A stretch of DNA of 64,000 nt from Escherichia coli. GTDB lineage: Bacteria > Pseudomonadota > Gammaproteobacteria > Enterobacterales > Enterobacteriaceae. The stretch lies in the NCBI RefSeq assembly GCF_045037415.1, contig NZ_CP173438.1; one strand, written 5' to 3'. The position numbers and the translations under genes are program-made. Of the stretch, positions 5,238 to 51,580 are shown one piece after another (position 1 is the stretch's first letter; each line of letters opens with the position of its first letter). The notes beneath the pieces are model-generated. The model had not been told where the DNA came from. It ran no database searches and was given only the letters and a program-made list of their open reading frames with translations.

Positions 5238-6308
5238 ATGAAAAAATTGATCAATGATGTGCAAGACGTACTGGACGAACAACTGGCAGGACTAGCGAAA
5301 GCGCATCCATCGCTGACACTGCATCAGGATCCGGTGTATGTCACCCGAGCTGATGCCCCCGTTGCAGGAAAAGTCGCCCTGCTGTCGGGTGGCGGCAGCG
5401 GACACGAGCCGATGCATTGTGGTTATATCGGTCAGGGGATGCTTTCGGGGGCCTGTCCGGGCGAAATTTTCACCTCACCGACGCCCGATAAAATCTTTGA
5501 ATGCGCCATGCAAATTGATGGCGGCGAAGGTGTACTGTTGATTATCAAAAATTACACCGGCGATATTCTTAACTTCGAAACAGCAACCGAGTTACTGCAC
5601 GATAGCGGCGTAAAAGTGACCACTGTGGTCATTGATGACGACGTTGCAGTAAAAGACAGTCTTTATACCGCCGGGCGACGCGGCGTTGCCAACACCGTAT
5701 TAATTGAAAAACTCGTAGGTGCAGCGGCGGAGCGTGGCGACTCACTGGACGCCTGTGCGGAACTGGGGCGTAAGTTGAATAATCAAGGCCACTCAATAGG
5801 TATCGCTCTCGGTGCCTGTACCGTTCCTGCCGCGGGCAAACCTTCTTTTACCCTGGCGGATAATGAGATGGAGTTTGGCGTCGGCATTCATGGTGAGCCA
5901 GGTATTGACCGCCGCCCCTTCTCTTCCCTTGATCAAACCGTCGATGAAATGTTCGACACCCTGCTGGAAAATGGCTCATACCATCGCACTTTGCGTTTAT
6001 GGGATTATCAACAAGGCAGCTGGCAGGAAGAACCACAAACCAAACAACCGCTCCAGTCTGGCGATCGGGTGATTGCGCTGGTTAACAATCTTGGCGCAAC
6101 TCCGCTTTCTGAGCTGTACGGCGTCTATAACCGCCTGACCACACGTTGCCAGCAAGCGGGATTGACTATCGAACGTAATTTAATTGGCGCGTACTGCACC
6201 TCACTGGATATGACCGGTTTCTCAATCACCTTACTGAAAGTTGATGACGAAACGCTGGCACTCTGGGACGCCCCGGTCCACACCCCGGCCCTTAACTGGG
6301 GTAAATAA
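5238..6308 (+). CDS. dhaK: Dihydroxyacetone kinase subunit DhaK
   Basis: MKKLINDVQDVLDEQLAGLAKAHP. 356 aa from the internal Met. Synteny with dhaL/dhaM. Confidence 0.95.
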   Translation: MKKLINDVQDVLDEQLAGLAKAHPSLTLHQDPVYVTRADAPVAGKVALLSGGGSGHEPMHCGYIGQGMLSGACPGEIFTSPTPDKIFECAMQIDGGEGVLLIIKNYTGDILNFETATELLHDSGVKVTTVVIDDDVAVKDSLYTAGRRGVANTVLIEKLVGAAAERGDSLDACAELGRKLNNQGHSIGIALGACTVPAAGKPSFTLADNEMEFGVGIHGEPGIDRRPFSSLDQTVDEMFDTLLENGSYHRTLRLWDYQQGSWQEEPQTKQPLQSGDRVIALVNNLGATPLSELYGVYNRLTTRCQQAGLTIERNLIGAYCTSLDMTGFSITLLKVDDETLALWDAPVHTPALNWGK

Positions 6309-6318
6309 GGAGAAAGCA

Positions 6319-6951
6319 ATGTCACTGAGCAGAACTCAAATTGTTAACTGGCTCACTCGTTGTGGCGATATTTTCAGCACCGAGAGCGAGTATCTTACTG
6401 GACTGGATCGCGAGATTGGCGACGCTGACCACGGGCTAAATATGAACCGAGGCTTTGGCAAAGTGGTGGAAAAACTCCCTGCTATCGCAGATAAAGATAT
6501 CGGTTTCATTCTCAAGAATACCGGCATGACGCTACTTTCCAGCGTCGGAGGTGCCAGTGGTCCGCTGTTCGGTACCTTCTTTATCCGCGCCGCACAGACA
6601 ACCCAGGCACGGCAAAGCCTGACGCTGGAAGAGCTTTATCAGATGTTCCGCGATGGCGCGGACGGCGTAATCAGTCGCGGGAAAGCCGAACCTGGCGATA
6701 AAACCATGTGTGATGTGTGGGTGCCGGTGGTGGAATCGTTACGTCAGTCCTGCGAGCAAAATCTCTCTGTTCCGGCGGCGCTCGACGCTGCCAGTAGCAT
6801 CGCCGAATCCGCTGCACAAAGTACGATTACGATGCAAGCCCGCAAAGGCCGCGCCAGTTATCTCGGTGAACGCAGTATTGGTCACCAGGATCCCGGCGCG
6901 ACCTCGGTGATGTTTATGATGCAAATGTTGGCGTTAGCCGCAAAAGAGTAA
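6319..6951 (+). CDS. dhaL: Dihydroxyacetone kinase ADP-binding subunit DhaL
   Basis: MSLSRTQIVNWLTRCGDIF. 210 aa. SD aaggag lies upstream. Confidence 0.95.
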   Translation: MSLSRTQIVNWLTRCGDIFSTESEYLTGLDREIGDADHGLNMNRGFGKVVEKLPAIADKDIGFILKNTGMTLLSSVGGASGPLFGTFFIRAAQTTQARQSLTLEELYQMFRDGADGVISRGKAEPGDKTMCDVWVPVVESLRQSCEQNLSVPAALDAASSIAESAAQSTITMQARKGRASYLGERSIGHQDPGATSVMFMMQMLALAAKE

Positions 6952-8380: not shown

Positions 8381-8699
8381 ACCACCGTTCGGATGGCATC
8401 ATTCTGATGTCATCCGGCAATTTACTCTGCACTGATGTTTTTTAACTACCTGTTATATTTTTCACCAAATTATGATGATTTTTCTTCGCTAATCGCGAAC
8501 CCAACGTCGCTGGCTGACGAATAAACAGATGTTATTTTATCACTCTATTTCGCCGTTATTTATCCCTTTAATTCCCTTTTCTAAAATGTCTGTCAGTTCG
8601 CAGAATGTGATTTCGATCATGCAGCTAGTGCGATCCTGAACTAAGGTTTTCTGATACTTGAATACCGTTTTATTCGGTTTCGCCAAAGGAGAATGATTG

Positions 8700-10397
8700 A
8701 TGAAATCCCCCGCACCTTCTCGCCCGCAAAAAATGGCGTTAATTCCAGCCTGCATCTTTTTGTGTTTCGCTGCGCTATCGGTGCAGGCAGAAGAAACATC
8801 GGTAACACCACAACCGCCTGATATTTTATTAGGGCCGCTGTTTAATGATGTGCAAAACGCCAAACTTTTTCCGGACCAAAAAACCTTTGCCGATGCCGTG
8901 CCGAACAGCGATCCGCTGATGATCCTTGCTGATTATCGGATGCAGCAAAACCAGAGCGGATTTGATCTACGCCATTTCGTTAACGTCAATTTCACCCTGC
9001 CGAAAGAGGGCGAGAAATATGTTCCGCCAGAGGGGCAATCACTGCGCGAACATATTGACGGACTTTGGCCGGTATTAACGCGTTCTACCGAAAACACCGA
9101 AAAATGGGATTCTCTATTACCGCTGCCAAAGCCTTATGTCGTGCCAGGCGGACGTTTTCGCGAGGTATATTACTGGGACAGTTACTTCACCATGTTAGGA
9201 CTTGCCGAAAGCGGTCACTGGGATAAAGTCGCGGATATGGTGGCCAATTTTGCTCATGAAATAGACACTTACGGTCATATTCCCAACGGCAACCGCAGTT
9301 ACTATTTAAGCCGCTCGCAACCGCCCTTCTTTGCCCTGATGGTAGAGTTACTGGCGCAGCATGAAGGCGACGCCGCGTTGAAACAATACCTGCCGCAAAT
9401 GCAAAAAGAATATGCTTACTGGATGGACGGTGTTGAAAACCTGCAAGCCGGACAACAGGAAAAACGCGTTGTAAAACTTCAGGATGGTACCCTTCTCAAC
9501 CGCTACTGGGACGATCGCGATACGCCACGACCAGAGTCATGGGTGGAAGATATTGCCACTGCCAAAAGCAATCCGAATCGACCTGCCACTGAAATTTACC
9601 GCGACCTGCGCTCTGCCGCTGCGTCTGGCTGGGATTTCAGCTCGCGCTGGATGGACAATCCGCAGCAGTTAAACACCTTACGCACCACCAGCATCGTACC
9701 GGTCGATCTGAACAGCTTGATGTTCAAAATGGAAAAAATCCTCGCCCGCGCCAGCAAAGCTATCGGAGATAACGCGATGGCAAACCAGTACGAAACGCTG
9801 GCAAATGCCCGTCAAAAAGGGATCGAAAAATACCTGTGGAACGATCAACAAAGCTGGTATGCCGATTACGACCTGAAAAGTCATAAAGTGCGCAATCAGT
9901 TAACCGCGGCCGCCCTGTTCCCGCTGTACGTCAATGCGGCAGCGAAAGATCGCGCCAGCAAAATGGCGACGGCGACGAAAACACATCTGCTGCAACCAGG
10001 CGGCCTGAACACCACGTCGGTGAAAAGTGGGCAACAATGGGATGCGCCAAACGGCTGGGCGCCGTTGCAGTGGGTCGCGACAGAAGGATTACAAAACTAC
10101 GGGCAAAAAGAGGTAGCGATGGACATTAGCTGGCACTTCCTGACCAATGTTCAGCACACCTATGACCGGGAGAAAAAGCTGGTGGAAAAATATGATGTCA
10201 GCACCACCGGAACAGGGGGCGGCGGTGGCGAATATCCATTACAGGATGGCTTTGGCTGGACCAATGGCGTGACGCTGAAAATGCTGGATTTGATCTGCCC
10301 GAAAGAGCAACCGTGTGACAATGTTCCGGCGACGCGTCCACTCAGTGAATCAACAACACAGCCGCTAAAACAAAAAGAGGCGGAACCTACGCCTTAA
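8700..10397 (+). CDS. treA: Periplasmic trehalase
   Basis: [30 protein letters not shown] signal peptide. 565 aa. Trehalase motifs present ([26 protein letters not shown]). Confidence 0.96.
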
Positions 10398-10726
10398 CTT
10401 TACTGTATATCGAGCAATGCCATTACGTGCATAAAATTGGCATTGCTCTTTCTTCATCACGAAATACCACTCTTTCTACGGTCTATGCCTTTATTTTCTT
10501 TTATTAGAGAAGATTTTAATTTTATTTTATCAACTTGTTAATCATCACACCTCTATTTATATTTTCCCCCACTCCCCATTCTCCCTGACAATTTTCTTGT
10601 GGAACAAAGTGTTATTTAAGAAACAAGCAAATCATTCTGTCTCTTTAGACAAATTTTGACATCAAACATGATCTTTTTCGCTATATGTGTAAGTATATAG
10701 CGGTTTTAATTATCAGGATATTACTT

Positions 10727-11749
10727 ATGTCACTAACCAGACGGAGGTTTACACAGATTCTTGCGTCGACATTGTTCCTGCATCATCTGCCGTCCTTTGC
10801 ACAATCAGTCAAATTCTGGGCCTCACTGACGCTTCCCGAAGCCCAACACATTACACGCATCGTCAGCGCAGGCGCGCCCGCCGATTTACTATTGCTGGCT
10901 GTCGCGCCAGAAAAAATGGTCGGTTTTTCCTCTTTTGATTTTGCCCGTCAGGCATTAATTCCATTGCCAGAGCACATTCGCCAGTTCCCCAGGCTGGGAC
11001 GACTCGCCGGGCGCGCCAGCACACTCTCGCTGGAAGGGCTTATGGCGTTACATCCCGATTTGGTCGTTGATTGCGGCAATACGGATGAAACCTGGATCTC
11101 CCAGGCACGGCAGGTTAGCGAACAGACACAAATACCCTGGTTATTGCTTAACGGGAAACTGGAACAATCAGCAGAACAGTTAACAACGCTTGGCAAAACG
11201 TTAGGCGAAGAGCACCGCGCCGCAGAACAAGCCAATCTCGCCAGCCGCTTCGTTGGTGAAGCTCAGGCATTCGCCACCTCACCCGCCGCTAATCTCAGCT
11301 TTTATGCTGCGCGCGGTCCTCGAGGGCTGGAAACGGGCTTACAGGGTTCGTTGCATACCGAGGCGGCGGAATTATTAGGTTTGCACAACGTCGCGCAAAT
11401 AGCCGATCGCCACGGTCTGACACAGGTTTCCATGGAAAATCTCCTGCGCTGGCAGCCGGATATTATTCTGGTTCAGGAGGCCGTTACTGCAGATTTTATT
11501 CGTCGTGATCCTCTCTGGCAGGGCGTGAAAGCGGTTGCGGAACAACGCATCTTATTTTTAAGTGGCCTGCCCTTTGGCTGGCTGGATGCCCCGCCGGGAA
11601 TCAACCGTCTTCTGGGATTACGCAGACTTCACGCCTGGCTGGATCCCGCCATCAATCGCCAGTTTAAAAGTGACATGCAGCATTACGCCCAACTGTTCTG
11701 GCATTGTTCACTCAGTGACGCCGACTATCAAAAATTGGTGGCGAGCTAA
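10727..11749 (+). CDS. Periplasmic substrate-binding protein of a siderophore/cobalamin-type (FecB/BtuF class) ABC importer, with a twin-arginine-like signal
   Basis: MSLTRRRFTQILASTLFLHHLPSFAQS. SD agga lies upstream. The stop overlaps the permease start (TAATG). First gene of the non-K-12 island. Confidence 0.8.
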   Translation: MSLTRRRFTQILASTLFLHHLPSFAQSVKFWASLTLPEAQHITRIVSAGAPADLLLLAVAPEKMVGFSSFDFARQALIPLPEHIRQFPRLGRLAGRASTLSLEGLMALHPDLVVDCGNTDETWISQARQVSEQTQIPWLLLNGKLEQSAEQLTTLGKTLGEEHRAAEQANLASRFVGEAQAFATSPAANLSFYAARGPRGLETGLQGSLHTEAAELLGLHNVAQIADRHGLTQVSMENLLRWQPDIILVQEAVTADFIRRDPLWQGVKAVAEQRILFLSGLPFGWLDAPPGINRLLGLRRLHAWLDPAINRQFKSDMQHYAQLFWHCSLSDADYQKLVAS

Positions 11750-12729
11750 TGAGAACCGTAAACGGATGTATTTTGCTGCTGGCAGCTATCAGTATCACTT
11801 TTGCCGCCGTAAGTGGGGCTTATCATCTCGATATGCAGCAACTGCTGGCGCTCATTCTTCGTCAAGAAAATGTTCCTGTGCAGGAACAAATTGTCTTCTG
11901 GCAAATCCGCGTGCCGCGTATTCTTGCTGCGCTGTTTCTGGGCGCGGCGCTGGCAGGGGCCGGAACCACCTATCAGGGAATGTTCCGTAATCCCTTAGTG
12001 TCACCGGATATTTTAGGCGTCTCCGCCGGTGCCGGACTTGGTGCCTGCGCGGCAATCCTGTGGGGATTATCCATTGTTTACATCCAGCTGTACGCATTTT
12101 GCGGCGGGCTGATGGTGGTCGCGGGCGTCTGGTTGATTACGCGTCGGGTGACCCGCCACGATCCGATCTTAACCCTGGTGCTGGTAGGCATTGCGTTAGG
12201 AACGTTGTGCGGAGCGGGGATATCGCTAATAAAAACGCTGGCCGATCCTTACACCCAGTTACCGTCAATTACCTTCTGGTTGCTGGGGGGGCTGTCCACC
12301 GTGACCTTACGCGATCTCTGCTATGCTGCACCGATCATTCTCATAGGCTCCTTGCCCCTGTTTTTTCTCCGCTGGCGCATGAATTTACTCACGCTTTCCG
12401 ACGACGAAGCCCGTTCGCTGGGACTGAACGTGACACGTCTGCGCTTTGGATTGATTGTCTGCGCCACACTCATCACCGCCAGCACGGTAGCAATAGCAGG
12501 CATAATTGGTTGGGTCGGCCTGGTCGTTCCGCACATTGCCCGCTTGTTGACCGGTCATAACCATCAGCAGCTGTTGCCCATGGCAATGTGTACTGGCGCG
12601 ATTCTGCTCCTGCTTACCGATACGCTGGCACGCAGCATTGGAACAACAGAAATCCCACTTGGCATTCTGACCGCTTTTGTTGGTGCACCGTTTTTCCTGT
12701 TTTTGTTGTTACGCGGAGGTCGCCAGTGA
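11749..12729 (+). CDS. FecCD-family ABC transporter permease
   Basis: 326-aa polytopic membrane protein with FecCD/BtuC-like features (GAALAGAG, PLGILTAFVGAPFFLFLL). Confidence 0.88.
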   Translation: MRTVNGCILLLAAISITFAAVSGAYHLDMQQLLALILRQENVPVQEQIVFWQIRVPRILAALFLGAALAGAGTTYQGMFRNPLVSPDILGVSAGAGLGACAAILWGLSIVYIQLYAFCGGLMVVAGVWLITRRVTRHDPILTLVLVGIALGTLCGAGISLIKTLADPYTQLPSITFWLLGGLSTVTLRDLCYAAPIILIGSLPLFFLRWRMNLLTLSDDEARSLGLNVTRLRFGLIVCATLITASTVAIAGIIGWVGLVVPHIARLLTGHNHQQLLPMAMCTGAILLLLTDTLARSIGTTEIPLGILTAFVGAPFFLFLLLRGGRQ

Positions 12730-13484
12730 CTTTGCTTGCCGTCCGTCATGCGTCTCTGGGTTACTCCCGCCATCCGGTGCTACGCGACGTGTCCTTCACC
12801 CTGTCGCAAGGAACAATTTGTTGTCTGTTAGGAGCCAATGGTTGCGGCAAAACCACACTCATGCGCTCCATTCTTGGCGTTATACCGTTATTAAAAGGCG
12901 AGATCTTACTGGATAGCCTCCCTGTGCAGACACTCAGCCATCGCCAGCGCGCGCAGGCTATTGCCTGGGTGCCGCAGGCGCACGACGGCATTTTTGCTTT
13001 TAGTGTGCTGGATATGGTGTTGATGGGCCTGGCCCCCACCATAGGCGCTTTTTCCGTTCCCGGTAAGCAAGAACGCCTGAAAGCAACGGAGCAACTGGAA
13101 AAGCTGGGCATTTTGCATCTGGCGACACGACGCTGGAATACGCTTAGCGGCGGTGAACGTCAGCTGGCTTTAATCGCCCGTGCACTCGTCCAGCAACCGC
13201 GCTTGTTATTACTGGATGAGCCTGCCTCCAGCCTCGATTTCGGTCATCAGATCCAACTTCTGGACACGCTGGCGCAGCTCAAAAATAACGGCATGACAAT
13301 GTTAATGTCGACTCATCATCCGCTCCATGCAAACGCCATTGCCGACAGCATTATCCAGGTAGAGCCAGATGGACGAGTAACACAAGGCTTACCGACCGAA
13401 CAGTTAACAACGAAAAAACTGGCTGCCCTGTACCGGGTTTCTGCCGACCAGATTCACCATCACCTCTCTGCAATTAAGCACTAA
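12726..13484 (+). CDS. ABC transporter ATP-binding protein (the 'fepC' of the prrA-modD-yc73-fepC cluster as I recall it)
   Basis: GTG start overlaps the permease stop (GTGA). Walker A GANGCGKTT, signature LSGGERQ, Walker B LLLLDEP. Confidence 0.88.
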   Translation: MTLLAVRHASLGYSRHPVLRDVSFTLSQGTICCLLGANGCGKTTLMRSILGVIPLLKGEILLDSLPVQTLSHRQRAQAIAWVPQAHDGIFAFSVLDMVLMGLAPTIGAFSVPGKQERLKATEQLEKLGILHLATRRWNTLSGGERQLALIARALVQQPRLLLLDEPASSLDFGHQIQLLDTLAQLKNNGMTMLMSTHHPLHANAIADSIIQVEPDGRVTQGLPTEQLTTKKLAALYRVSADQIHHHLSAIKH

Positions 13485-13493
13485 GGAAAAATC

Positions 13494-14306
13494 ATGCTCA
13501 TTGACGATATTGATTTTGCAGACCTTTACCTTCAGCAACTCAGGCTGGCCCATCGCACAGAAAAAACGCCGGATCACTGGGATCAACGGGCGGAAAAAAT
13601 GGCGGAAAATTGCGCCTCGCCTACGGACAGCTACCTGCAACAACTGACCTCAAAAATTGACCTGCAAGGCGCGCAAACCTTATTCGATATGGGCTGCGGA
13701 CCGGGTACCGTATCGCTGGCGCTGGCGGACAAACTCACGACGATTTATGGCGTTGATTACAGTCAGGGGATGCTGAACGTTGCCGCCCGTCGTGCCGCCG
13801 CGCTAAAGGCAGACAATGTCCACTGGATCCAGCGCGCCTGGGAAGAGGACTGGAGTGACCTGCCACGCTGCGATATTGCCGTGGCTTCCCGCTCCACTCT
13901 GGTGGCTGATATGCGCCAGGCAATGAGCAAACTGAATAATCAGGCACGGCTTCGCGTCTATACGACTCATCTGGTCAGCACCTCGTTCGTCTCTCCAGCC
14001 ATTCAGCGGGCGGCTGGTCGGGAAGTGATCGAATTACCCAACTATATCTTTGCACTCAACGTCCTGTATCAGATGGGAATTTATGCTCACGTTGATTTTA
14101 TCCGCGGACAAAATTGCCAACAGGATAACAGCACCTGGGAACGTTTTGAGCAGAACGTCAGCTGGAGTCTGGGCGCGCTTAACGACGATGAGCGTGAGCG
14201 GTTATATCGCTGGTATCAACAACAAGATGCTCGTGCCCTCGCCCCTGCCAGCCGCGACTGGGCGCTCATCTGGTGGGATAGCGTACCGCAGGAGACACTG
14301 CGATGA
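13494..14306 (+). CDS. Class I SAM-dependent methyltransferase
   Basis: Motif I LFDMGCGPGT. 270 aa. The stop overlaps the modD start (ATGA). Confidence 0.8.
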   Translation: MLIDDIDFADLYLQQLRLAHRTEKTPDHWDQRAEKMAENCASPTDSYLQQLTSKIDLQGAQTLFDMGCGPGTVSLALADKLTTIYGVDYSQGMLNVAARRAAALKADNVHWIQRAWEEDWSDLPRCDIAVASRSTLVADMRQAMSKLNNQARLRVYTTHLVSTSFVSPAIQRAAGREVIELPNYIFALNVLYQMGIYAHVDFIRGQNCQQDNSTWERFEQNVSWSLGALNDDERERLYRWYQQQDARALAPASRDWALIWWDSVPQETLR

Positions 14307-15157
14307 TTTTCCTTTCTCAGGCACAAATCGATGCGTTATTGCTGGAAGATATCCAGGGCGGTGACCTGACCACGCGAGCATTAAATATTGGACACCAGCA
14401 TGGCTATATAGAGTTTTTTCTCCGTCAGGGCGGCTGCATCAGCGGCATTTCTGTCGCGTGTAAGATGTTAACTACGCTGGGATTAACTATTGATGACGCG
14501 GTCAGCGACGGTTCACAAGCGAACGCGGGTCAGCGGCTAATCCGTGCGCAAGGTAATGCCGCAGCACTTCATCAGGGATGGAAGGCAGTCCAGAATGTGC
14601 TGGAGTGGAGTTGCGGTGTTTCTGATTATCTCGCTCAAATGCTGGCGTTACTTCGTGAACGTTACCCTGATGGCAATATCGCCTGCACCCGAAAAGCAAT
14701 TCCGGGCACCCGCTTACTGGCCTCGCAGGCAATTCTGGCTGCCGGAGGACTGATTCATCGTGCCGGATGTGCGGAAACCATATTATTGTTTGCCAACCAC
14801 CGCCATTTTCTTCATGACAATCAGGACTGGTCAGGCGCAATCAATCAGTTACGTCGCCACGCACCCGAGAAGAAAATAGTTGTTGAAGCCGACACGCCGA
14901 AAGAGGCAATCGCCGCGTTACGCGCGCAACCAGACGTACTTCAGCTCGACAAATTTAGTCCGCAACAGGCAACTGAAATTGCGCAAATAGCACCGTCGCT
15001 GGCTCCCCACTGCACGCTGGCTCTGACCGGCGGAATTAATCTGACAACACTCAAAAATTACCTCGACTGCGGCATTCGCCTTTTTATTACCTCCGCGCCT
15101 TATTACGCGACACCAGCTGACATTAAAGTCAGTCTGCAACCCGCAGCCTCTATTTAA
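14303..15157 (+). CDS. modD: ModD protein (quinolinate/nicotinate-nucleotide pyrophosphorylase family)
   Basis: 284 aa. N-terminal LLEDIQGGDLTT and overall QPRTase-like pattern. Gene order matches the ExPEC prrA-modD cluster (recollection). Confidence 0.7.
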   Translation: MIFLSQAQIDALLLEDIQGGDLTTRALNIGHQHGYIEFFLRQGGCISGISVACKMLTTLGLTIDDAVSDGSQANAGQRLIRAQGNAAALHQGWKAVQNVLEWSCGVSDYLAQMLALLRERYPDGNIACTRKAIPGTRLLASQAILAAGGLIHRAGCAETILLFANHRHFLHDNQDWSGAINQLRRHAPEKKIVVEADTPKEAIAALRAQPDVLQLDKFSPQQATEIAQIAPSLAPHCTLALTGGINLTTLKNYLDCGIRLFITSAPYYATPADIKVSLQPAASI

Positions 15158-15182
15158 TTCTTTGTTAAACGGAATTTATTCT

Positions 15183-17153
15183 ATGAGACTCAAAAAACGT
15201 TATCTCTGCACAGCATTATCACTTGCCTTTACCCAGCAGGCCGTAGCGGCTCAGGAGAGTGACACGCTGACCGTATGGTCCAGTCCGGTATCATCAACGA
15301 CGACCACCGTTCTCGATCAACCCACCATGAAGGCCCTGGATAAACAGAATGTCGCTCAGGCATTAAGTGTCGTCCCCGGCGTGGTGCTGCAAAAGTCAGG
15401 TAGCCGCAACGAAGAACAGGTCAAAGTTCGTGGCTTTGATAGTCGTCAGGTGCCGGTCTATTTCGACGGTGTGCCCATTTATGTTCCCTATGACGGCAAC
15501 CTCGATCTGGCGCGGATTCTGACCAACAATTTGGGGGCAGTTGAAGTTTCCAAAGGGTATTCGTCGCTGCTTCAGGGGCCTAATCAGATGGGCGGAGCCA
15601 TTAATATCACCACCCAGAAGCCAACAAAACCTCTGGAAGCAAGTCTGGGATATCGCCAGGGATGGAGCCGTAGCCAGGACAATGCCTACGATATGCATGC
15701 TTCATTTGCCGCCAGCAGCGATCTGGGGTATTTGCAAGTCAGCGGTAGCCAGCTAAAGCAGGATTTTCTCGGCCTGCCGCATGGTGTAAATAATGATATT
15801 GCAGGCAAACACGGCAAGATGATTAATTCATCGGCTGATGATAAACGCGGCATTGTGAAGCTCGGTTTTACACCACGCGAAAACGATGAATACACATTGA
15901 CTTACATTAAGCAGGATGGTGAAAAAGATAACCCGCCATACAGTGGAAATAGTGGTCAGAAATCACGCTACTGGCAGTGGCCAGAGTATGACAAAGAAAG
16001 TTTTTATTATCAGGGAACGACCCAACTAAACGATCGTTTTACCCTGAAAAGTCGGCTGTATCGCGACACCTTTGAAAATACGCTAATGATGTACAACTCG
16101 CTGGCTGATTTGAAAAATAAAAAAGGCAGCTACAGCCATTATTCCGATTACAGCGACGGTGCCGGGTTACAACTGGCAGCCGATGTGCGTGAAAACGATC
16201 TGCTGTCGTTTGCCGTTAACTGGAAAGATGACGTACACCGGGAAAAAGGTGCGCCGCACGCCGCTTACGATCGCTATGAAGATCGTACCTGGTCGCTCGC
16301 CAGTGAATATCAATGGGCTGCTGCCGATAATGTCGATGTCGTGGCTGGAATCAGCTATGACTGGCGCGATAGCGTAGAAGCGAAAAAACATGAGAAAGAT
16401 GGCAGTATCACCCATTATGACGACAACAATCAGTCAGCTTTTAACTGGCAGGTGATGGGGAAATACCACTTTGCCAATGAAGACACGCTGGCGCTTTCGT
16501 ACTATGACCGCACACGCTTTCCGACGCTGAAAGAACGCTATACCACGTCCAAACCTGCGTATAACCAGATAGCGATTGTTAACCCGCAGCTCAAGCCGGA
16601 ACGCGCGCGCGGGGTGGATTTAACCTGGAATGGTGCCTTCACGCACGACTGGGGATTTGAGGTCAGCGTTTACTATAACCGGGTGAGTGATGCCATCCTC
16701 TCGCACAATATCGATGCCGATACCATTCAAAATCAGAACAGCGGCACGGTGGATTACAGCGGTCTGGATGCCGGTATTAAGGGGAAAATCAGCAATATAC
16801 TGGATGTAGGATTGAGCTACGCCCTGATCCACGCTGATGCCAAACGCAAAGACATCGGCAAGATAACCGATCTGCCAACGCAGACAATGACCGCATGGAT
16901 GACTCTCAAACCGTGGGAGCCGTTAAGCGTAACGCTGTCGGAAGAGGCGCGTTCCTCCAGCTACAGCAACAGTGACGGTTCACAAAAAGCCGCCGGTTTT
17001 GCGGTGACTCACATTCGAGCCGATTACACCTTAGGTCATGGCTTCAGCGTTAATGCGTCGGTCAATAACCTGTTTGATACCAAATATGCCTACAGTGAAG
17101 GGTTTATTGAAGAAGGTCGCAATTTCTGGGCAGGTATCGAGTATACGTTCTGA
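15183..17153 (+). CDS. prrA: TonB-dependent outer-membrane receptor
   Basis: Signal peptide MRLKKRYLCTALSLAFTQQAVA. TonB-box-like DTLTVW. Plug motifs present (VEVSKGYSSLLQGPNQMGGAINI). C-terminal ...FWAGIEYTF. The symbol is from recollection of the ExPEC cluster name. Confidence 0.85.
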   Translation: MRLKKRYLCTALSLAFTQQAVAAQESDTLTVWSSPVSSTTTTVLDQPTMKALDKQNVAQALSVVPGVVLQKSGSRNEEQVKVRGFDSRQVPVYFDGVPIYVPYDGNLDLARILTNNLGAVEVSKGYSSLLQGPNQMGGAINITTQKPTKPLEASLGYRQGWSRSQDNAYDMHASFAASSDLGYLQVSGSQLKQDFLGLPHGVNNDIAGKHGKMINSSADDKRGIVKLGFTPRENDEYTLTYIKQDGEKDNPPYSGNSGQKSRYWQWPEYDKESFYYQGTTQLNDRFTLKSRLYRDTFENTLMMYNSLADLKNKKGSYSHYSDYSDGAGLQLAADVRENDLLSFAVNWKDDVHREKGAPHAAYDRYEDRTWSLASEYQWAAADNVDVVAGISYDWRDSVEAKKHEKDGSITHYDDNNQSAFNWQVMGKYHFANEDTLALSYYDRTRFPTLKERYTTSKPAYNQIAIVNPQLKPERARGVDLTWNGAFTHDWGFEVSVYYNRVSDAILSHNIDADTIQNQNSGTVDYSGLDAGIKGKISNILDVGLSYALIHADAKRKDIGKITDLPTQTMTAWMTLKPWEPLSVTLSEEARSSSYSNSDGSQKAAGFAVTHIRADYTLGHGFSVNASVNNLFDTKYAYSEGFIEEGRNFWAGIEYTF

Positions 17154-17160
17154 TGTGAAA

Positions 17161-17190
17161 GCGGATAGCGGCATCTGTATCGCTATCCGC
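17161..17190. terminator. Hairpin between the convergent receptor gene and ymgE
   Basis: 10-bp stem gcggatagcg / cgctatccgc with a 10-nt loop. T-rich only on the minus-strand side. Confidence 0.4.
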
Positions 17191-17202
17191 CTTATGAAAA
17201 TC

Positions 17203-17457
17203 TTATTCTCTTCGCAGGAGGCGGAATACGCCCAGCACCAGGATAGCGCCCACCACCGCCACCAGGAAGCTGTGCAAATTAAAACCGCTGATGGAGCCGC
17301 CAATGCCAAACATGGTCGCCAGCCAGCCGCCGACCACCGCACCGACTATCCCAAGAATACAGGTCAGGAAAAATCCACCACCATCTCGCCCCGGCATGAT
17401 TAGCTTGGCGATAATGCCGGCTATCAGGCCAAAAATAATCCAGGCAATAATTCCCAT
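17203..17457 (-). CDS. ymgE: Transglycosylase-associated (GlsB/YeaQ/YmgE) family small membrane protein
   Basis: MGIIAWIIFGLIAGIIAKLIMPGRDGGG. 84 aa from the internal Met. Confidence 0.9.
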   Translation of the reverse strand: MGIIAWIIFGLIAGIIAKLIMPGRDGGGFFLTCILGIVGAVVGGWLATMFGIGGSISGFNLHSFLVAVVGAILVLGVFRLLRRE

Positions 17458-17595
17458 GTTCAGGCCCTCGTTTCGATGAATCGGACGCAAGAAATGCTTA
17501 CGTCAACGCTCTAAGTATAGGCAAGGGCGGGATCGATGCTGGGCATATGTCGGCTGATTTAAGAACAACATGTAAAAAATATTCGCGCATTTGTA

Positions 17596-17622
17596 TTAAG
17601 TTTTGTTAACTGCGACCGATAA
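17596..17622 (+). promoter_or_regulatory. Sigma-28 (FliA) class 3 flagellar promoter for ycgR
   Basis: TTAAGTTT-N11-ACCGATAA compared with the consensus TAAAGTTT-N11-GCCGATAA. It ends 36 nt upstream of the ycgR GTG start. Confidence 0.6.
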
Positions 17623-17657
17623 ACCAAAGACAGTTTGTCAGTCAGGAGTTTTTCCGC

Positions 17658-18392
17658 GTGAGTCATTACCATGAGCAGTTCCTGAAACAAAATCCGTTAG
17701 CCGTCCTGGGCGTGTTACGCGATTTGAACAAAGCCGCAATTCCTTTGCGTATCAGCTGGAATGGCGGGCAGCTGATCAGCAAAATACTGGCAATAACTCC
17801 GGATAAACTGGTGCTGGATTTCGGCAGCCAGGCCGAAGACAACATCGCCGTGCTAAAGGCGCAGCACATTACCATTACCGCCGAAACTCAGGGTGCGAAA
17901 GTCGAGTTTACTGTTGAACAACTACAGCAGAGTGAATACTTGCAGCTTCCGGCATTTATTACCGTACCGCCTCCCACCTTATGGTTTGTACAACGACGCC
18001 GATATTTCCGCATCACCGCCCCACTCCATCCGCCTTATTTTTGCCAGACCAAACTGGCGGATAACAGTACGTTACGTTTCCGCCTGTATGATTTGTCGTT
18101 AGGCGGCATGGGCGCATTACTGGAAACAGCAAAGCCTGCCGAATTACACGAAGGCATGCGCTTCGCTCAGATTGAAGTCAACATGGGGCAATGGGGTGTT
18201 TTTCACTTTGACGCCCAGTTAATCTCCATCAGCGAGCGCAAAGTGATTGATGGCAAAAATGAAACCATCACCACTCCCCGTCTGAGCTTCCGTTTTCTTA
18301 ACGTCAGCCCGACGGTGGAGCGGCAATTACAGCGGATTATTTTCTCTCTCGAGCGAGAAGCCCGGAAAAAAGCGGACAATGTGCGTGACTGA
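17658..18392 (+). CDS. ycgR: Flagellar brake protein YcgR (c-di-GMP-binding PilZ)
   Basis: GTG start. MSHYHEQFLKQNPLAVLGVLRDL. 244 aa. PilZ RRRYFR motif present. Confidence 0.95.
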   Translation: MSHYHEQFLKQNPLAVLGVLRDLNKAAIPLRISWNGGQLISKILAITPDKLVLDFGSQAEDNIAVLKAQHITITAETQGAKVEFTVEQLQQSEYLQLPAFITVPPPTLWFVQRRRYFRITAPLHPPYFCQTKLADNSTLRFRLYDLSLGGMGALLETAKPAELHEGMRFAQIEVNMGQWGVFHFDAQLISISERKVIDGKNETITTPRLSFRFLNVSPTVERQLQRIIFSLEREARKKADNVRD

Positions 18393-48889: not shown

Positions 48890-48908
48890 GCTAATGATAA
48901 TCATTTTC
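48890..48908 (+). promoter_or_regulatory. Fur box upstream of sitA
   Basis: GCTAATGATAATCATTTTC matches the consensus GATAATGATAATCATTATC at 17 of 19 positions. Confidence 0.8.
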
Positions 48909-48984: not shown

Positions 48985-49899
48985 ATGCACTCGATAAAAA
49001 AAGTAACCATGCTCTTGGGGGGGCTCGCACTCACCTGCTCGATCGCATTTCAGGCAAGTGCAACTGAAAAATTCAAGGTCATTACAACATTTACCATCAT
49101 CGCGGATATGGCCAAAAACGTGGCGGGAGATGCTGCAGAAGTCTCATCCATAACCAAGCCTGGTGCAGAAATTCATGAGTATCAGCCTACCCCTGGCGAT
49201 ATTAAACGTGCGCAGGGGGCACAACTGATTCTCGCCAATGGTATGAATCTGGAATTGTGGTTCCAACGCTTTTACCAGCATCTCAATGGGGTTCCAGAAG
49301 TAATTGTCTCTTCGGGTGTGACGCCTGTAGGGATCACCGAAGGACCCTATGAGGGCAAACCTAACCCCCATGCATGGATGTCGCCAGATAATGCTCTGAT
49401 TTACGTCGATAATATTCGTGATGCGTTGATAAAATACGATCCGGCAAATGCACAAACCTACCAACGCAATGCCGATACTTATAAAGCCAAGATTACCCAA
49501 ACCCTTGCCCCCCTGCGTAAGCAGATTACGGAACTCCCTGAGAATCAGCGATGGATGGTCACCAGTGAAGGGGCTTTTTCTTATCTCGCACGCGATTTGG
49601 GGCTAAAAGAGCTTTATCTGTGGCCGATTAATGCCGATCAACAAGGAACACCGCAGCAGGTACGTAAGGTTGTTGATATAGTTAAGAAAAATCATATCCC
49701 GGCAGTCTTTAGCGAGAGTACGATTTCCGATAAACCAGCGCGTCAGGTTGCGCGTGAAACCGGCGCACACTACGGCGGTGTGCTCTATGTCGATTCCCTG
49801 AGCACAGAAAACGGCCCGGTACCGACGTATATCGACCTTCTTAAGGTTACTACCAGTACGCTGGTACAGGGAATTAAAGCTGGGAAAAGGGAGAAATAA
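48985..49899 (+). CDS. sitA: Mn2+/Fe2+ ABC transporter periplasmic binding protein SitA
   Basis: 304 aa with a signal peptide. Cluster-9 (PsaA/YfeA-like) sequence with EIHEYQPTP and PHAWMSP. Confidence 0.92.
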
Positions 49900-50726
49900 T
49901 GATGCAATCTGCAGGCATTGTCGTTAATGATGTTACTGTCACCTGGCGTAACGGGCACACAGCACTGCGCGATGCATCCTTCACAGTACCAAGTGGATCT
50001 ATTGCCGCTCTGGTTGGGGTAAACGGTTCCGGAAAATCGACGTTGTTTAAAGCGATTATGGGATTTGTGCGTCTGACCAGCGGAAAGATATCTGTTCTGG
50101 GTATTCCCACGCGACAGGCGTTACAGAAAAACCTGGTTGCCTACGTCCCTCAGTCAGAAGATGTTGACTGGTCATTTCCTGTACTGGTGGAAGATGTGGT
50201 GATGATGGGCCGCTATGGGCATATGGGTATGTTGCGTATCGCCAAAAAGAGGGATCGTCAAATTGTCACCGATGCGCTGGAACGTGTCGATATGGTGAAT
50301 TTTCGCCATCGACAAATCGGCGAGCTTTCCGGTGGACAAAAGAAACGCGTCTTTCTGGCGAGAGCGATTGCACAGCAGGGTGATGTGATCCTGCTGGATG
50401 AACCTTTTACTGGCGTTGATGTGAAAACCGAAGCCAAAATCATCAGCCTGTTGAGGGAGTTACGCGCGGAAGGCAAAACGATGCTTGTCTCAACACACAA
50501 TCTCGGATCCGTCACGACATTTTGCGATTATACGGTCATGGTCAAAGGCACCGTCCTGGCAAGCGGGCCGACAGACACCACTTTTACAGCCGAGAACCTA
50601 GAGCTGGCTTTTAGCGGCGTACTGCGCCATGTCACACTTAACGGCTCGGAAGAAAGCATTATTACTGACGATGAACGCCCTTTTGTGGCTCATCGACCGT
50701 CAGCGGTGCAGAGGGAAGAAAGATGA
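49899..50726 (+). CDS. sitB: Mn2+/Fe2+ ABC transporter ATPase SitB
   Basis: Walker [10 protein letters not shown], signature LSGGQKKR, Walker B ILLDEP. The start overlaps the sitA stop. Confidence 0.92.
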
Positions 50727-51580
50727 ACGTGCTACTGGAACCCTTCAGCTATGAATATATGCTCAATGCGATGTGGGTCTCGGCGATGGTCGGCGGTCTC
50801 TGCGCTTTCCTGTCATGCTATCTGATGCTAAAAGGCTGGTCGCTGATTGGCGATGCGTTGTCGCACTCTATTGTCCCGGGTGTTGCGGGGGCATATATGC
50901 TGGGGCTTCCGTTTTCTCTGGGAGCCTTCTTTTCCGGCGGACTGGCTGCGGGCAGCATGCTGTTTCTTAACCAACGCACCCGCTTAAAAGAAGATGCCAT
51001 CATCGGTCTGATCTTCTCGTCCTTTTTTGGCCTGGGGCTGTTTATGGTGTCATTGAACCCGACATCTGTGAACATTCAGACCATCGTCCTGGGCAATATT
51101 CTGGCAATCGATCCGGCGGATATCCTGCAACTCACTATCATTGGCATTCTCTCGATCATCGTGCTTTTTTTCAAATGGAAAGATCTTATGGTGACCTTTT
51201 TCGACGAGAATCACGCCCGTGCTATTGGATTGCATCCGGGCAGATTAAAACTCCTCTTCTTCACCCTGCTGTCGGTTTCGACCGTTGCGGCGCTGCAAAC
51301 GGTTGGTGCCTTTCTGGTGATCTGTCTGGTGGTGACTCCCGGTGCAACAGCATGGTTGTTAACCGATCGTTTTCCCCGCCTGCTCATGATTGCTGTAACT
51401 ATTGGCAGTGTAACCAGTTTCCTCGGCGCGTGGGTCAGTTACTTTCTGGACGGCGCGACAGGTGGAATCATCGTGGTGGCGCAGACACTGCTGTTTCTTT
51501 TAGCATTTGTCTTTGCGCCCACCCATGGGCTTTTGGCAAATCGTCGGCGTGCGCATAAGGCGCTGGAGGATCGCTCATGA
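50723..51580 (+). CDS. sitC: Mn2+/Fe2+ ABC transporter permease SitC
   Basis: 285-aa polytopic ABC-3 family permease. Overlapping start/stop (ATGA). Confidence 0.92.

What the first reader, a model, noticed from the sequence alone, without database searches (positions are those of the whole stretch)
10400..17160. TonB/ABC import operon with embedded methyltransferase and ModD, inserted between treA and ymgE
What the sequence shows:
- Six same-strand genes have overlapping or near-abutting start and stop codons (TAATG, GTGA, ATGA).
- In order they encode a FecB/BtuF-class binding protein with a twin-arginine-like leader (TRRRFTQ), a FecCD permease, an ATPase, a class I SAM methyltransferase (DMGCGPGT), a ModD/QPRTase-family protein and a 656-aa TonB-dependent receptor.
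- The 330-bp upstream region is AT-rich, and I could not find a convincing Fur box in it.

Established knowledge (recollection): in K-12 treA and ymgE are close neighbours. This gene order matches the 'prrA-modD-yc73-fepC' cluster used as an ExPEC/B2 marker and annotated as a putative iron system, whose substrate has, to my knowledge, not been defined.

Inference: two cytoplasmic enzymes locked by translational coupling into an uptake operon suggest that the imported ligand is chemically modified or salvaged, for example a tetrapyrrole/corrinoid-like or pyridine-containing metallophore, rather than simply stripped of iron.
Basis: partly seen in the sequence, partly recalled or inferred. Interest (0 to 1): 0.5.

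Follow-up and report, generated by a model that had tools for sequence, protein, structure and literature searches.

The report
Molybdate-regulated TonB/ABC uptake operon
A six-gene E. coli uptake operon that has been labelled a "putative iron system" for about 20 years has no iron (Fur) control site. It has instead a conserved binding site for the molybdate sensor ModE and travels with molybdate-transport genes across bacteria, so it is most likely a molybdenum or tungsten scavenging system.

Summary
There are six co-directional, tightly coupled genes: a Tat-type binding protein, a FecCD permease, an ATPase, a class I SAM methyltransferase (MT), ModD and a 656-aa TonB-dependent receptor. The leader is AT-rich, with no Fur box and no riboswitch.

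Two parts of the interpretation do not hold.
- **Not an insertion.** Citrobacter koseri carries the cluster at the same treA–ymgE site. K-12-like genomes keep the receptor's last 8 codons next to a 622-bp ycgY segment. The two alleles partition E. coli (39% / 58%).
- **Not a corrinoid or pyridine-chelate salvage system.** A palindrome at 10677–10704 matches the ModE operator in 17 of 20 positions; the K-12 modA operator scores 16. It ends 23 nt before the start codon. It is the only conserved block in the leaders of four genera.

Related clusters encode ModE or TOBE proteins. The MT–ModD pair also sits inside modABC operons. The closest solved transporter is the Haemophilus influenzae molybdate/tungstate importer MolBC.

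Best reading: a ModE-repressed molybdenum/tungsten uptake system. The exact ligand and the chemistry of the two enzymes are unknown. It is a new variant of a known kind, and none of this has been tested experimentally.

The parts
10398..10398 (.). Left boundary of the variable segment, the first base after the treA stop codon
   Evidence: Homology to the K-12-like genome L001 ends at window 10398.
10656..10661 (+). Candidate -35 hexamer TTGACA of the operon promoter
   Evidence: Read from the sequence. C. koseri has TTGATA at the same spacing from the ModE box. The consensus scan did not call it, because the -10 is weak. This is an inference.
10677..10704 (.). Predicted ModE (molybdate-responsive repressor) operator, TTCGCTATATGTGTAAGTATATAGCGGT. 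The core palindrome is 10679-10702.
   Evidence: It is the only match in 64 kb, with 0 mismatches; 0.09 matches are expected even allowing 2 mismatches. It fits the published consensus ATCGNTATATA-N6-TATATANCGAT in 17 of 20 positions. The K-12 modA operator scores 16/20 and the O157 allele of this site scores 18/20. It is the only conserved block in the leaders of four genera.
10727..11749 (+). Periplasmic binding protein (Peripla_BP_2, cluster A-II type) with a twin-arginine leader
   Evidence: Pfam PF01497. The RR motif is conserved in 5 of 6 well-defined orthologue N-termini. The AF2 model has pLDDT 86.6. The nearest structures are 4pag (TM 0.79), then MolA 3psa (TM 0.67).
11749..12729 (+). 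FecCD/BtuC-type (type II ABC) permease, MolB-like
   Evidence: PF01032, 299 bits. The best PDB hit is MolB HI1471 (2nq2_A) at 222 bits, against FhuB 175, HmuU 168 and BtuC 146.
12726..13484 (+). ABC ATPase, MolC-like. The GTG start overlaps the permease stop (GTGA).
   Evidence: PF00005. The best single-NBD PDB hit is MolC HI1470 at 126 bits. Junction shown.
13494..14306 (+). Class I SAM-dependent small-molecule methyltransferase ('yc73'), substrate unknown
   Evidence: Methyltransf_25/31. AF2 pLDDT 92; there are only generic small-molecule methyltransferase fold neighbours, TM <=0.6. In at least 10 of 19 loci with a homologue of >=38% identity, modABC, ModE or TOBE genes lie within 10 kb.
14303..15157 (+). 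ModD, a type II phosphoribosyltransferase-fold protein that is not NadC
   Evidence: TIGR01334, 502 bits. The NadC model scores 136 bits, below its cutoff of 198. The QAPRTase residues R139, K140, H161, R162, E201 and D222 are retained, but K172 is an invariant Phe in ModD.
15183..17153 (+). TonB-dependent outer-membrane receptor ('prrA'), 656 aa, with no assigned substrate class
   Evidence: Plug plus beta-barrel. All NCBIfam substrate-specific models score far below their cutoffs. Only plug-domain PDB hits are found.
17130..17153 (+). Right boundary: the last 8 codons of the receptor (AGIEYTF*), which K-12-like genomes retain as a relic
   Evidence: Alignment A2 shows the K-12-like sequence nearly identical from GCAGGT.TCGAGTATACGTTCTGA onward, with one difference in the 24-nt relic.

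Best explanation
The cluster is a molybdate-responsive (ModE-regulated) uptake system for molybdenum, and possibly tungsten.

**Proposed mechanism**
- When cytoplasmic molybdate is sufficient, molybdate-bound ModE sits on the palindrome at 10677-10704. The palindrome overlaps the promoter/start region, so the single six-gene transcript is shut off.
- When molybdenum is scarce, the operon is expressed.
- The TonB-dependent receptor captures the molybdenum species at the outer membrane.
- The Tat-exported binding protein hands it to a MolBC-like type II ABC importer.
- The co-translated methyltransferase and ModD act in the cytoplasm on a molybdenum-linked small molecule.

**Shown here**
- The gene content and the coupling between genes.
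- The operator sequence, its placement and its conservation.
- The recurrent linkage of these genes to modABC, ModE and TOBE genes.
- The closest solved transporter being MolBC.

**Inferred**
- That ModE binds the site and represses the operon.
- That molybdenum is the cargo.
- Whether the cargo is free molybdate/tungstate or a molybdenum complex.

**Unknown:** what the two enzymes do.
For: 1. **Operator.**
   - The palindrome is an exact match and the only one in 64 kb.
   - It fits the published E. coli ModE consensus in 17 of 20 positions.
   - The K-12 modA operator scores 16/20 on the same scale. It ends 18 nt before its ATG, against 23 nt here.
   - Background: 0 sites of >=15 in 1.0 Mb of unrelated loci, and 0 sites of >=17 in 2 Mb of simulated AT-rich DNA.
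2. **Footprint across genera.** Boxes of 16-18/20 lie immediately upstream of the first gene of orthologous clusters:
   - C. koseri, 18/20;
   - Pectobacterium, 18/20 twice (before the binding protein and before the receptor);
   - Morganella, 16 and 17;
   - Acidovorax, 17 and 18;
   - Burkholderiaceae, 16;
   - betaproteobacterium L017, 16;
   - Sulfurovaceae, 17.
   In the alignment of four enterobacterial leaders the box is the only conserved block.
3. **Linked regulators.** The Acidovorax and Burkholderiaceae clusters end with a ModE gene (HTH_1 plus 2 TOBE). Pectobacterium has a TOBE protein directly upstream.
4. **Enzymes ride with molybdate transporters.**
   - Arcobacter: ModE-ModA-TOBE-ModB-ModC-MT-ModA2-ModB2-ModD.
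   - Sulfurovaceae: ModA-TOBE-ModB-ModC...PBP-PERM-ATP-MT-ModD.
   - Gemmatimonadaceae: the methyltransferase lies next to a ModA gene that has an 18/20 box.
   - Edwardsiella: the MT-ModD pair stands alone, behind a 15/20 box.
5. **Closest characterised system.**
   - The permease and ATPase are most similar to MolB and MolC of H. influenzae.
   - MolA is the nearest functionally characterised fold for the binding protein.
   - MolBC-A imports molybdate, and molB is repressed 10-fold by molybdate (PMC4031551).
   - The Haemophilus-type locus L089 reads ModABC-like, ModD, a 17/20 box, then MolA-MolB-MolC.
6. **No competing signal.** There is no Fur, Zur or NikR site and no riboswitch.
Against: - No experiment on this operon is available. 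ModE binding, molybdate-dependent expression and molybdenum transport are all predictions.
- The binding protein is only distantly related to MolA: 35 bits, 20% identity, TM 0.67. This is barely better than its match to iron-type and uncharacterised binding proteins. Its nearest structure, 4pag, has no assigned ligand.
- Molybdate is small enough to pass through porins, so the need for a TonB-dependent receptor is not obvious. It hints at a larger or complexed cargo.
- Membership of the ModE regulon does not prove molybdenum transport, because ModE also controls genes for molybdoenzymes.
- No good -10 hexamer was found.
- The palindrome can also fold as an RNA hairpin followed by a T run.
- The public annotation and all papers found call it an iron system.
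Confidence: 0.7

Rival explanations
1. It is a ferric-siderophore or other iron uptake system, as annotated and as proposed in the ExPEC and O157 literature.
For: It has generic iron-type parts: a TonB-dependent receptor, a Peripla_BP_2 binding protein, a FecCD permease and a FepC-like ATPase. PGAP names the binding protein 'iron ABC transporter substrate-binding protein'. Published papers call it a putative iron system.
Against: - The leader has no Fur box above noise level, while the same scan finds a 17/19 box at the sit operon in this window.
- All iron-specific NCBIfam models score far below their cutoffs.
- The conserved leader element is a ModE box.
- The cluster's relatives are embedded in modABC/ModE loci, not in siderophore loci.
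- The iron label in the papers is by homology only.
Confidence: 0.07
2. One reading: the system imports an organic metal chelate (tetrapyrrole/corrinoid-like or pyridine-containing), and the methyltransferase and ModD then modify or salvage it.
For: - The binding protein and permease belong to the class that carries large chelates.
- A TonB-dependent receptor is present.
- ModD has a quinolinate-phosphoribosyltransferase fold with most substrate-binding residues kept.
- The weak best NCBIfam hit of the methyltransferase is a corrinoid-protein-associated methyltransferase, 43 bits against a cutoff of 180.
Against: - There is no cobalamin or other riboswitch.
- The same MT-ModD pair sits in operons whose only transporters are ModABC-type oxyanion importers. 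In Edwardsiella it has no transporter. The enzymes therefore do not depend on an imported organic ligand.
- The nearest solved transporter carries an oxyanion (PMC4031551).
- A molybdenum-chelate version of this idea is not excluded; it is listed as the novel case.
Confidence: 0.08
3. The operon is molybdate-regulated through ModE, but its cargo is not molybdenum. It could be a substrate or cofactor precursor whose use depends on molybdenum status.
For: From established knowledge, ModE also controls non-transport genes such as moa, dmsA and napF. The binding protein is far from MolA. The receptor has no assignable substrate.
Against: - The operator overlaps the start region in the same geometry as at modA, which indicates repression, not activation.
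- The recurrent physical fusion with modABC operons and with molybdate-binding TOBE proteins is what parallel uptake routes for the same element would produce.
- The homologous MolBC-A system does import molybdate.
Confidence: 0.1
4. The palindrome is not a protein operator but an RNA hairpin: a terminator or attenuator, or a chance AT-rich repeat. Regulation would then be unrelated to molybdate.
For: The terminator scan flags 10678-10703, with an 11-pair stem followed by TTTTAATTAT. The RNA folds at -10.7 kcal/mol, z = -2.9.
Against: - What is conserved across genera is the half-site sequence CGnTATAT/ATATAnCG, while the spacer varies. That pattern fits a protein-binding site, not a stem maintained by covariation.
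- The same motif recurs before receptor genes in other genera and before modA genes.
- A terminator immediately before the ribosome-binding site of the first gene would silence the operon.
Confidence: 0.05

Closest known systems
MolBC-A (HI1470/HI1471/HI1472) with ModD (HI1473) of Haemophilus influenzae: a type II ABC importer of molybdate/tungstate
   Same: - Both have a FecCD/BtuC-type permease and NBD. MolB and MolC are the best solved matches, at 222 and 126 bits.
- Both have a Peripla_BP_2 binding protein.
- A ModD gene lies in the same locus (263 bits to the E. coli ModD).
- A 17/20 ModE box lies directly upstream of the binding-protein gene.
- Repression of molB by molybdate has been shown experimentally (PMC4031551).
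   Different: - The E. coli operon adds a TonB-dependent receptor and a SAM methyltransferase; neither was found in the Haemophilus-type locus.
- The gene order differs: ModD follows the transporter genes here and precedes them in Haemophilus.
- The binding protein belongs to another subfamily, scoring 35 bits to MolA and 97 bits to 4pag.
- MolBC-A is described as low affinity. A receptor-equipped system would be expected to scavenge.
ModABC / ModE high-affinity molybdate system of E. coli K-12
   Same: Both have an operator of the same consensus, at the same distance from the first start codon: 16/20 ending 18 nt upstream at modA, and 17/20 ending 23 nt upstream here. The predicted logic is the same: repression when molybdate is sufficient.
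   Different: The transporter architecture is unrelated: ModABC is a type I ABC importer with a ModA-type binding protein. ModABC has no outer-membrane component and no enzymes.
Beta-proteobacterial TBDR-DUF2478-PBP-permease-ATPase-MT-DUF364-ModD-ModE clusters (Acidovorax L004, Burkholderiaceae L003), uncharacterised
   Same: The receptor, binding protein (43% identity), permease, ATPase, methyltransferase and ModD are orthologous and co-directional. ModE boxes lie at the cluster promoter.
   Different: These clusters carry their own ModE, plus DUF2478 and DUF364. The only characterised DUF364 enzyme cyclises a SAM derivative (PMC12930334). The receptor comes first, not last. In L003, modABC is adjacent.
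Fur-regulated TonB/FecBCD-type ferric-chelate systems (Fec, Fep, Fhu, Chu)
   Same: The overall three-compartment architecture is the same: receptor, class III binding protein, FecCD permease and ATPase.
   Different: There is no Fur box. No iron-specific family model reaches its cutoff. Two cytoplasmic enzymes are embedded in the operon, and it carries a ModE operator.

Membership tests
ModE regulon (molybdate-responsive repression) | An operator matching ATCGNTATATA-N6-TATATANCGAT that overlaps the promoter/start region | tested here: met
   17 of 20 positions at 10677-10704, ending 23 nt before the ATG. The modA positive control scores 16/20.
ModE regulon (molybdate-responsive repression) | The operator is conserved in orthologous loci | tested here: met
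   Boxes of 16-18/20 precede the first gene in eight related clusters. The box is the only conserved leader block.
ModE regulon (molybdate-responsive repression) | ModE-molybdate binds the site, and expression falls when molybdate is added | not testable with these tools
   This needs EMSA or footprinting and expression assays. It has been shown only for molB in H. influenzae (PMC4031551).
MolBC-A type II molybdate/tungstate ABC importer | The permease and NBD are closest to MolB and MolC | tested here: met
   2nq2_A scores 222 bits and is the best PDB hit. 2nq2_C scores 126 bits and is the best single-NBD hit.
MolBC-A type II molybdate/tungstate ABC importer | The binding protein is orthologous to MolA | tested here: inconclusive
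   Only 35 bits and 20% identity, TM 0.67. MolA is the nearest characterised fold, but 4pag (ligand unknown) is much closer.
MolBC-A type II molybdate/tungstate ABC importer | It binds and transports molybdate/tungstate | not testable with these tools
   This needs ITC and uptake assays.
ModD (TIGR01334) | The score exceeds the curated cutoff of the ModD model | tested here: met
   502 bits against a cutoff of 179.
NadC quinolinate phosphoribosyltransferase | The score exceeds the NadC cutoff and the full catalytic set, including Lys172 (M. tuberculosis numbering), is present | tested here: not met
   136 bits, below the cutoff of 198. Lys172 is replaced by an invariant Phe163 and Arg105 by Lys.
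Fur-regulated ferric-siderophore uptake | A Fur box at the promoter | tested here: not met
   The best match is 13/19, which is noise level. The control box at the sit operon scores 17/19.
Fur-regulated ferric-siderophore uptake | The components reach substrate-specific family cutoffs (Fec, Fep, Fhu, haem) | tested here: not met
   All score far below their cutoffs. For example, FecB scores 32 against 320, and the TonB-siderophore model scores 127 against 223.
Cobalamin/corrinoid uptake (BtuB-BtuFCD) | A cobalamin riboswitch in the leader, and BtuB/BtuF/BtuC equivalog scores | tested here: not met
   No Rfam hit at E<=1. BtuB scores 80 against 600, and BtuC scores 243 against 461.
Horizontally inserted genomic island | Absent from the syntenic site in relatives, with mobility genes or repeats at the borders | tested here: not met
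   It is present at the same site in C. koseri. No integrase or tRNA is present. The K-12-like allele keeps a relic of the receptor's 3' end.

The most novel reading that the evidence does not exclude
The receptor and the 4pag-type binding protein import molybdenum as a complex rather than as free molybdate. Candidates are a catecholate- or other chelate-bound molybdenum (a "molybdophore"), or thiomolybdate formed in sulfidic gut contents. The conserved methyltransferase-ModD pair would be a so far undescribed cytoplasmic pathway using SAM and, by inference from ModD's fold, PRPP that handles molybdenum or its carrier. If so, this would be the first TonB-dependent molybdenum acquisition system. 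It is carried by about 40% of E. coli, including ExPEC and O157, and by Citrobacter, Proteus, Morganella, Yersinia and Pectobacterium. It has been mislabelled as an iron system.
Probability: 0.3. Interest if true: 0.8.

Novelty: new variant of a known kind. Interest (0 to 1): 0.6.

Why it matters
- **Host relevance.** From established knowledge, Enterobacteriaceae bloom in the inflamed gut through molybdenum-cofactor-dependent anaerobic respiration and formate oxidation, and tungstate treatment suppresses that bloom. A second, TonB-energised, ModE-controlled molybdenum route, present in roughly 40% of E. coli, would bear on this. That share includes ExPEC, APEC and O157 lineages. It would change how molybdenum supply, and tungstate poisoning, are understood in these pathogens.
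- **Marker reinterpretation.** The cluster is widely used as a virulence or phylogeny marker (prrA-modD-yc73-fepC) and would no longer count as an iron system.
- **Open question in Haemophilus.** ModE boxes found here in the Haemophilus-type locus offer an answer to the "unknown factor" that couples molybdate to molABC transcription in H. influenzae.
- **Uncharacterised families.** It gives ModD, which has had no function since 1993, a defined genetic context for biochemistry. The same applies to an uncharacterised methyltransferase family, with DUF2478 and DUF364 as recurrent partners.

Tried and rejected
- **Riboswitch or other structured RNA in the leader and operon:** the Rfam E-value scan found nothing.
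- **Fur, Zur and NikR boxes:** only noise-level matches.
- **Sigma-70 scan of the leader:** the only hits are around 10513-10563, no better than shuffled sequence. No canonical -10 lies next to the TTGACA at 10656.
- **ycgY as a remnant of a cluster gene:** no protein or DNA similarity to the cluster or to the extra C. koseri receptor.
- **A second, diverged E. coli paralogue (the 'PAI-II CFT073 copy'):**
  - The ModD search shows only E. coli sequences of at least 96% identity, with E. albertii next at 86-88%.
  - The position of the cluster in CFT073 itself was not resolved.
- **Methyltransferase function from structure:** the model is confident, but it has only generic small-molecule N-, O- and S-methyltransferase neighbours (TM <=0.6). 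It shows no specific likeness to ArsM or TehB oxyanion methyltransferases.
- **Receptor substrate class:** only plug-domain similarity in the PDB, and sub-threshold family scores.
- **The genome-contig scan:** Loci L025-L081, other than L060, are unrelated actinobacterial methyltransferases and served only as background.
- **Papers that could not be read:** Studholme & Pau 2003 (a ModE-site survey) and Tirado-Lee 2011 (the MolA structure) are not held. A prior report of this ModE site cannot be excluded.
- **Literature search:** No open-access paper links the E. coli cluster to molybdenum.

Full report
**1.

Six + strand genes lie between treA (8697-10397) and ymgE (17203-17490, minus strand):

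| Gene | Coordinates | Evidence |
|---|---|---|
| Binding protein | 10727-11749 | Peripla_BP_2 |
| Permease | 11749-12729 | FecCD, 299 bits |
| ATPase | 12726-13484 | ABC_tran |
| SAM methyltransferase (MT) | 13494-14306 | class I, motif DMGCGPGT |
| ModD | 14303-15157 | TIGR01334, 502 bits against cutoff 179 |
| TonB-dependent receptor | 15183-17153 | 656 aa, Plug plus barrel |

- The junctions are TAATG, GTGA and ATGA, plus gaps of 9 nt and 25 nt.
- The mechanical ORF start at 10685 is not the real start. PGAP and the AGGA Shine-Dalgarno point to the ATG at 10727, which gives MSLTRRRFTQ.
- The twin-arginine motif is kept in five of the six orthologues whose N-terminus is well defined. These are E. 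coli, C. koseri, Pectobacterium, Acidovorax and L017, but not Morganella.
- The 329-bp leader is 32% G+C.
- Its best Fur match is 13 of 19, which is noise. The same scan finds a 17/19 Fur box at 48890, in front of a sitABCD-type Mn/Fe operon elsewhere in the window.
- The Rfam E-value scan of 10300-17700 finds nothing.

**2. It is not an insertion.**

- Homology between the window and a K-12-like genome stops one base after the treA stop codon (10398). It resumes at 17130.
- The resumed stretch begins with the last eight codons of the receptor gene (AG[I/V]EYTF-stop). K-12-like genomes keep this as a relic, with one base different, next to a 622-bp segment holding ycgY.
- ycgY has no similarity to any cluster gene.
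- Citrobacter koseri carries the same six genes at the same treA...ymgE site. Nucleotide identity is 73.5% over 6.3 kb, against about 81% in the flanks.
- E. albertii and E. marmotae have orthologues.
- Of 5426 complete E. coli genomes, 2139 have the cluster and 3171 have the ycgY segment, which together make 98%.
- O157:H7 carries the cluster, so it is not B2-specific.
- The simplest history is an ancestral cluster that was replaced by ycgY in some lineages.

**3. The leader holds a ModE operator.**

- A perfect palindrome, CGCTATAT-GTGTAAGT-ATATAGCG, lies at 10679-10702.
- It is the only match in the window even when two mismatches are allowed, where 0.09 matches are expected.
- The published E. 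coli ModE consensus is ATCGNTATATA-N6-TATATANCGAT (Rodionov et al. 2004, PMC545781). The window site 10677-10704 matches 17 of the 20 specified positions.
- On the same scale the K-12 modA site CGTTATATTGTCGCCTACATAACG scores 16/20. From my own recollection, this is the footprinted modA operator.
- The modA site ends 18 nt before its ATG. The window site ends 23 nt before the ATG at 10727. The O157 allele of the window site scores 18/20.
- Background is low: no site of >=15 in 1.0 Mb of unrelated loci. In 2 Mb of random sequence with the leader's composition there is no site of >=17 and nine of >=16.
- A TTGACA lies at 10656-10661. C. koseri has TTGATA at the same spacing from the box, which suggests a -35 element. 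The box would then cover the -10/start region. This is an inference, because no good -10 was found.

**4. Comparative genomics ties the cluster to molybdenum.**

ModE boxes lie immediately upstream of the first gene of related clusters:

| Organism (locus) | Box score(s) out of 20 | Position |
|---|---|---|
| C. koseri (L082) | 18 | before the binding protein |
| Pectobacterium (L083) | 18 and 18 | before the binding protein and before the receptor |
| Morganella (L002) | 16 and 17 | before the binding protein and before the receptor |
| Acidovorax (L004) | 17 and 18 | before the receptor |
| Burkholderiaceae (L003) | 16 | before the receptor |
| Betaproteobacterium (L017) | 16 | before the receptor |
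| Sulfurovaceae (L011) | 17 | before a binding-protein gene |

- In an alignment of the E. coli, C. koseri, Pectobacterium and Morganella leaders, the box is the only conserved block.
- The Acidovorax cluster reads TBDR, unknown, DUF2478, PBP, permease, ATPase, MT, DUF364/DUF4213, ModD, ModE (HTH_1 plus two TOBE).
- The Burkholderiaceae locus has most of the same genes, lacking a detected DUF2478 or separate ATPase ORF, with modABC directly upstream.
- Pectobacterium has a TOBE protein directly upstream.
- In Arcobacter caeni the methyltransferase and ModD sit inside a classical operon: ModE-ModA-TOBE-ModB-ModC-MT-ModA2-ModB2-ModD.
- Sulfurovaceae has ModA-TOBE-ModB-ModC ... PBP-permease-ATPase-MT-ModD.
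- In a Gemmatimonadaceae genome the methyltransferase lies next to a ModA gene that has an 18/20 box.
- Edwardsiella tarda has only the MT-ModD pair, behind a 15/20 box.
- Of the 19 loci with a methyltransferase homologue of >=38% identity, at least 10 have modABC, ModE or TOBE genes within 10 kb. DUF2478 recurs in nine.
- The two enzymes therefore follow molybdenum-uptake genes of two unrelated transporter types. They do not follow a particular organic cargo.

**5. The closest characterised system is MolBC-A of H. influenzae.**

- The permease's best solved relative is MolB (HI1471, 2nq2_A) at 222 bits. FhuB scores 175, HmuU 168 and BtuC 146.
- The best single-NBD match of the ATPase is MolC, at 126 bits.
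- The binding protein is closest to an uncharacterised Sulfurospirillum protein, 4pag (97 bits, TM 0.79). Next comes MolA (35 bits, TM 0.67, 20% identity), which is only slightly ahead of iron-type proteins.
- MolBC-A imports molybdate, and molB is repressed 10-fold by molybdate. The authors attributed this to "an unknown factor" (PMC4031551).
- Using a primer sequence printed in that paper, I recovered two metagenome contigs carrying that locus.
- The locus reads: 17/20 ModE box, ModA-like, ModB-like, ModC-like, ModD (263 bits to the E. coli ModD), a second 17/20 ModE box, MolA, MolB, MolC. No methyltransferase or receptor is present in the stretch held.

**6. The enzymes.**

- ModD keeps the QAPRTase residues Arg139, Lys140, His161, Arg162, Glu201 and Asp222 (M. 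tuberculosis numbering).
- Lys172 is replaced by a Phe that is invariant in eight ModDs from four bacterial classes. Arg105 is replaced by Lys.
- ModD scores below the NadC cutoff. It looks like an active phosphoribosyltransferase-fold enzyme with a substrate other than quinolinate. This is an inference.
- The methyltransferase models confidently (pLDDT 92). It resembles only generic small-molecule methyltransferases, with TM <=0.6.
- DUF364 is a partner in the beta-proteobacterial clusters. Its genome context has long linked it to Mo, W and V transport (PMC2954201). Its one characterised member cyclises a SAM derivative (PMC12930334).

**7. Mechanism proposed.**

- Molybdate-bound ModE represses the operon.
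- Under molybdenum scarcity the receptor, the binding protein and the MolBC-like importer bring in molybdenum or tungsten. The methyltransferase and ModD then act on a molybdenum-linked small molecule.
- Regulation by ModE is strongly predicted. That molybdenum is the cargo is likely.
- Free oxyanion versus complex remains open. The MolBC precedent and the ModABC association favour the oxyanion. The TonB-dependent receptor and the non-MolA binding protein favour something larger.
- The chemistry of the enzymes is unknown.

**8. Rivals.**

- An iron system is contradicted by the missing Fur box and by the genomic context.
- A ModE-regulated operon with a non-molybdenum cargo is possible.
- A hairpin or terminator reading of the palindrome is possible. 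It does not explain why the half-site sequence is conserved across genera and before modA genes.

**9. Novelty and limits.**

- All public annotations seen call the transporter an iron system. The papers found propose iron uptake.
- No open-access paper found links the cluster to molybdenum.
- The key ModE-site survey (Studholme & Pau 2003) and curated regulon databases could not be consulted, so prior notice of the site cannot be ruled out.
- Nothing here is experimental evidence for this operon.

Noticed in passing
window 48890-48908 and 48985-51580: A strong Fur box (GCTAATGATAATCATTTTC, 17/19) lies about 95 nt upstream of a three-gene Mn/Fe ABC operon of the SitABC type. The ATPase matches PRK15056 at 593 bits. 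I used it as the positive control for the Fur scan.
   Followed up: partly
L089 2868-2895 and 5905-5932 (Haemophilus-type metagenome contig): Two 17/20 ModE boxes are present. One precedes a ModABC-like operon that ends in ModD. The other lies directly before molA-molB-molC. This would explain the molybdate repression of molB that the 2014 MolBC paper attributed to an unknown factor.
   Followed up: partly
L086 (E. coli O157:H7 TT12A) 5603-6415, 816-2500, 9767-11811: In this O157:H7 genome the cluster's methyltransferase gene is annotated as a pseudogene with an internal stop. treA is frameshifted, and ycgR is split by an IS3 element.
   Followed up: no
L082 11717-13831 (C. koseri): C. koseri has a second, convergent 704-aa TonB-dependent receptor gene between the cluster and ymgE. 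E. coli has no counterpart.
   Followed up: no
L004 6380-7060 and 10850-11716; L007, L012-L014, L017, L018, L020: DUF2478 is found next to the methyltransferase in nine loci. DUF364/DUF4213 is found in four beta-proteobacterial loci. Both recur with the methyltransferase, which suggests a larger molybdenum-linked enzyme set, of which E. coli keeps only the methyltransferase and ModD.
   Followed up: partly
window 10412-10448: An inverted repeat, GAGCAATGCCA-N15-TGGCATTGCTC, followed by a T-rich run lies just after the treA stop codon. It is probably the treA terminator of the cluster-bearing allele. It lies outside the region shared with K-12.
   Followed up: no
H26-H30 (E. coli genome hits of the ycgY segment): In several K-12-like genomes the ycgY segment is itself interrupted by IS1, which splits ycgY into two annotated pieces.
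   Followed up: no
L083 14361-15998 (Pectobacterium): An MsrPQ-like pair, a molybdopterin oxidoreductase plus a ferric-reductase-like membrane partner, lies 2.6 kb downstream of the Pectobacterium cluster. This may be coincidental.
   Followed up: no
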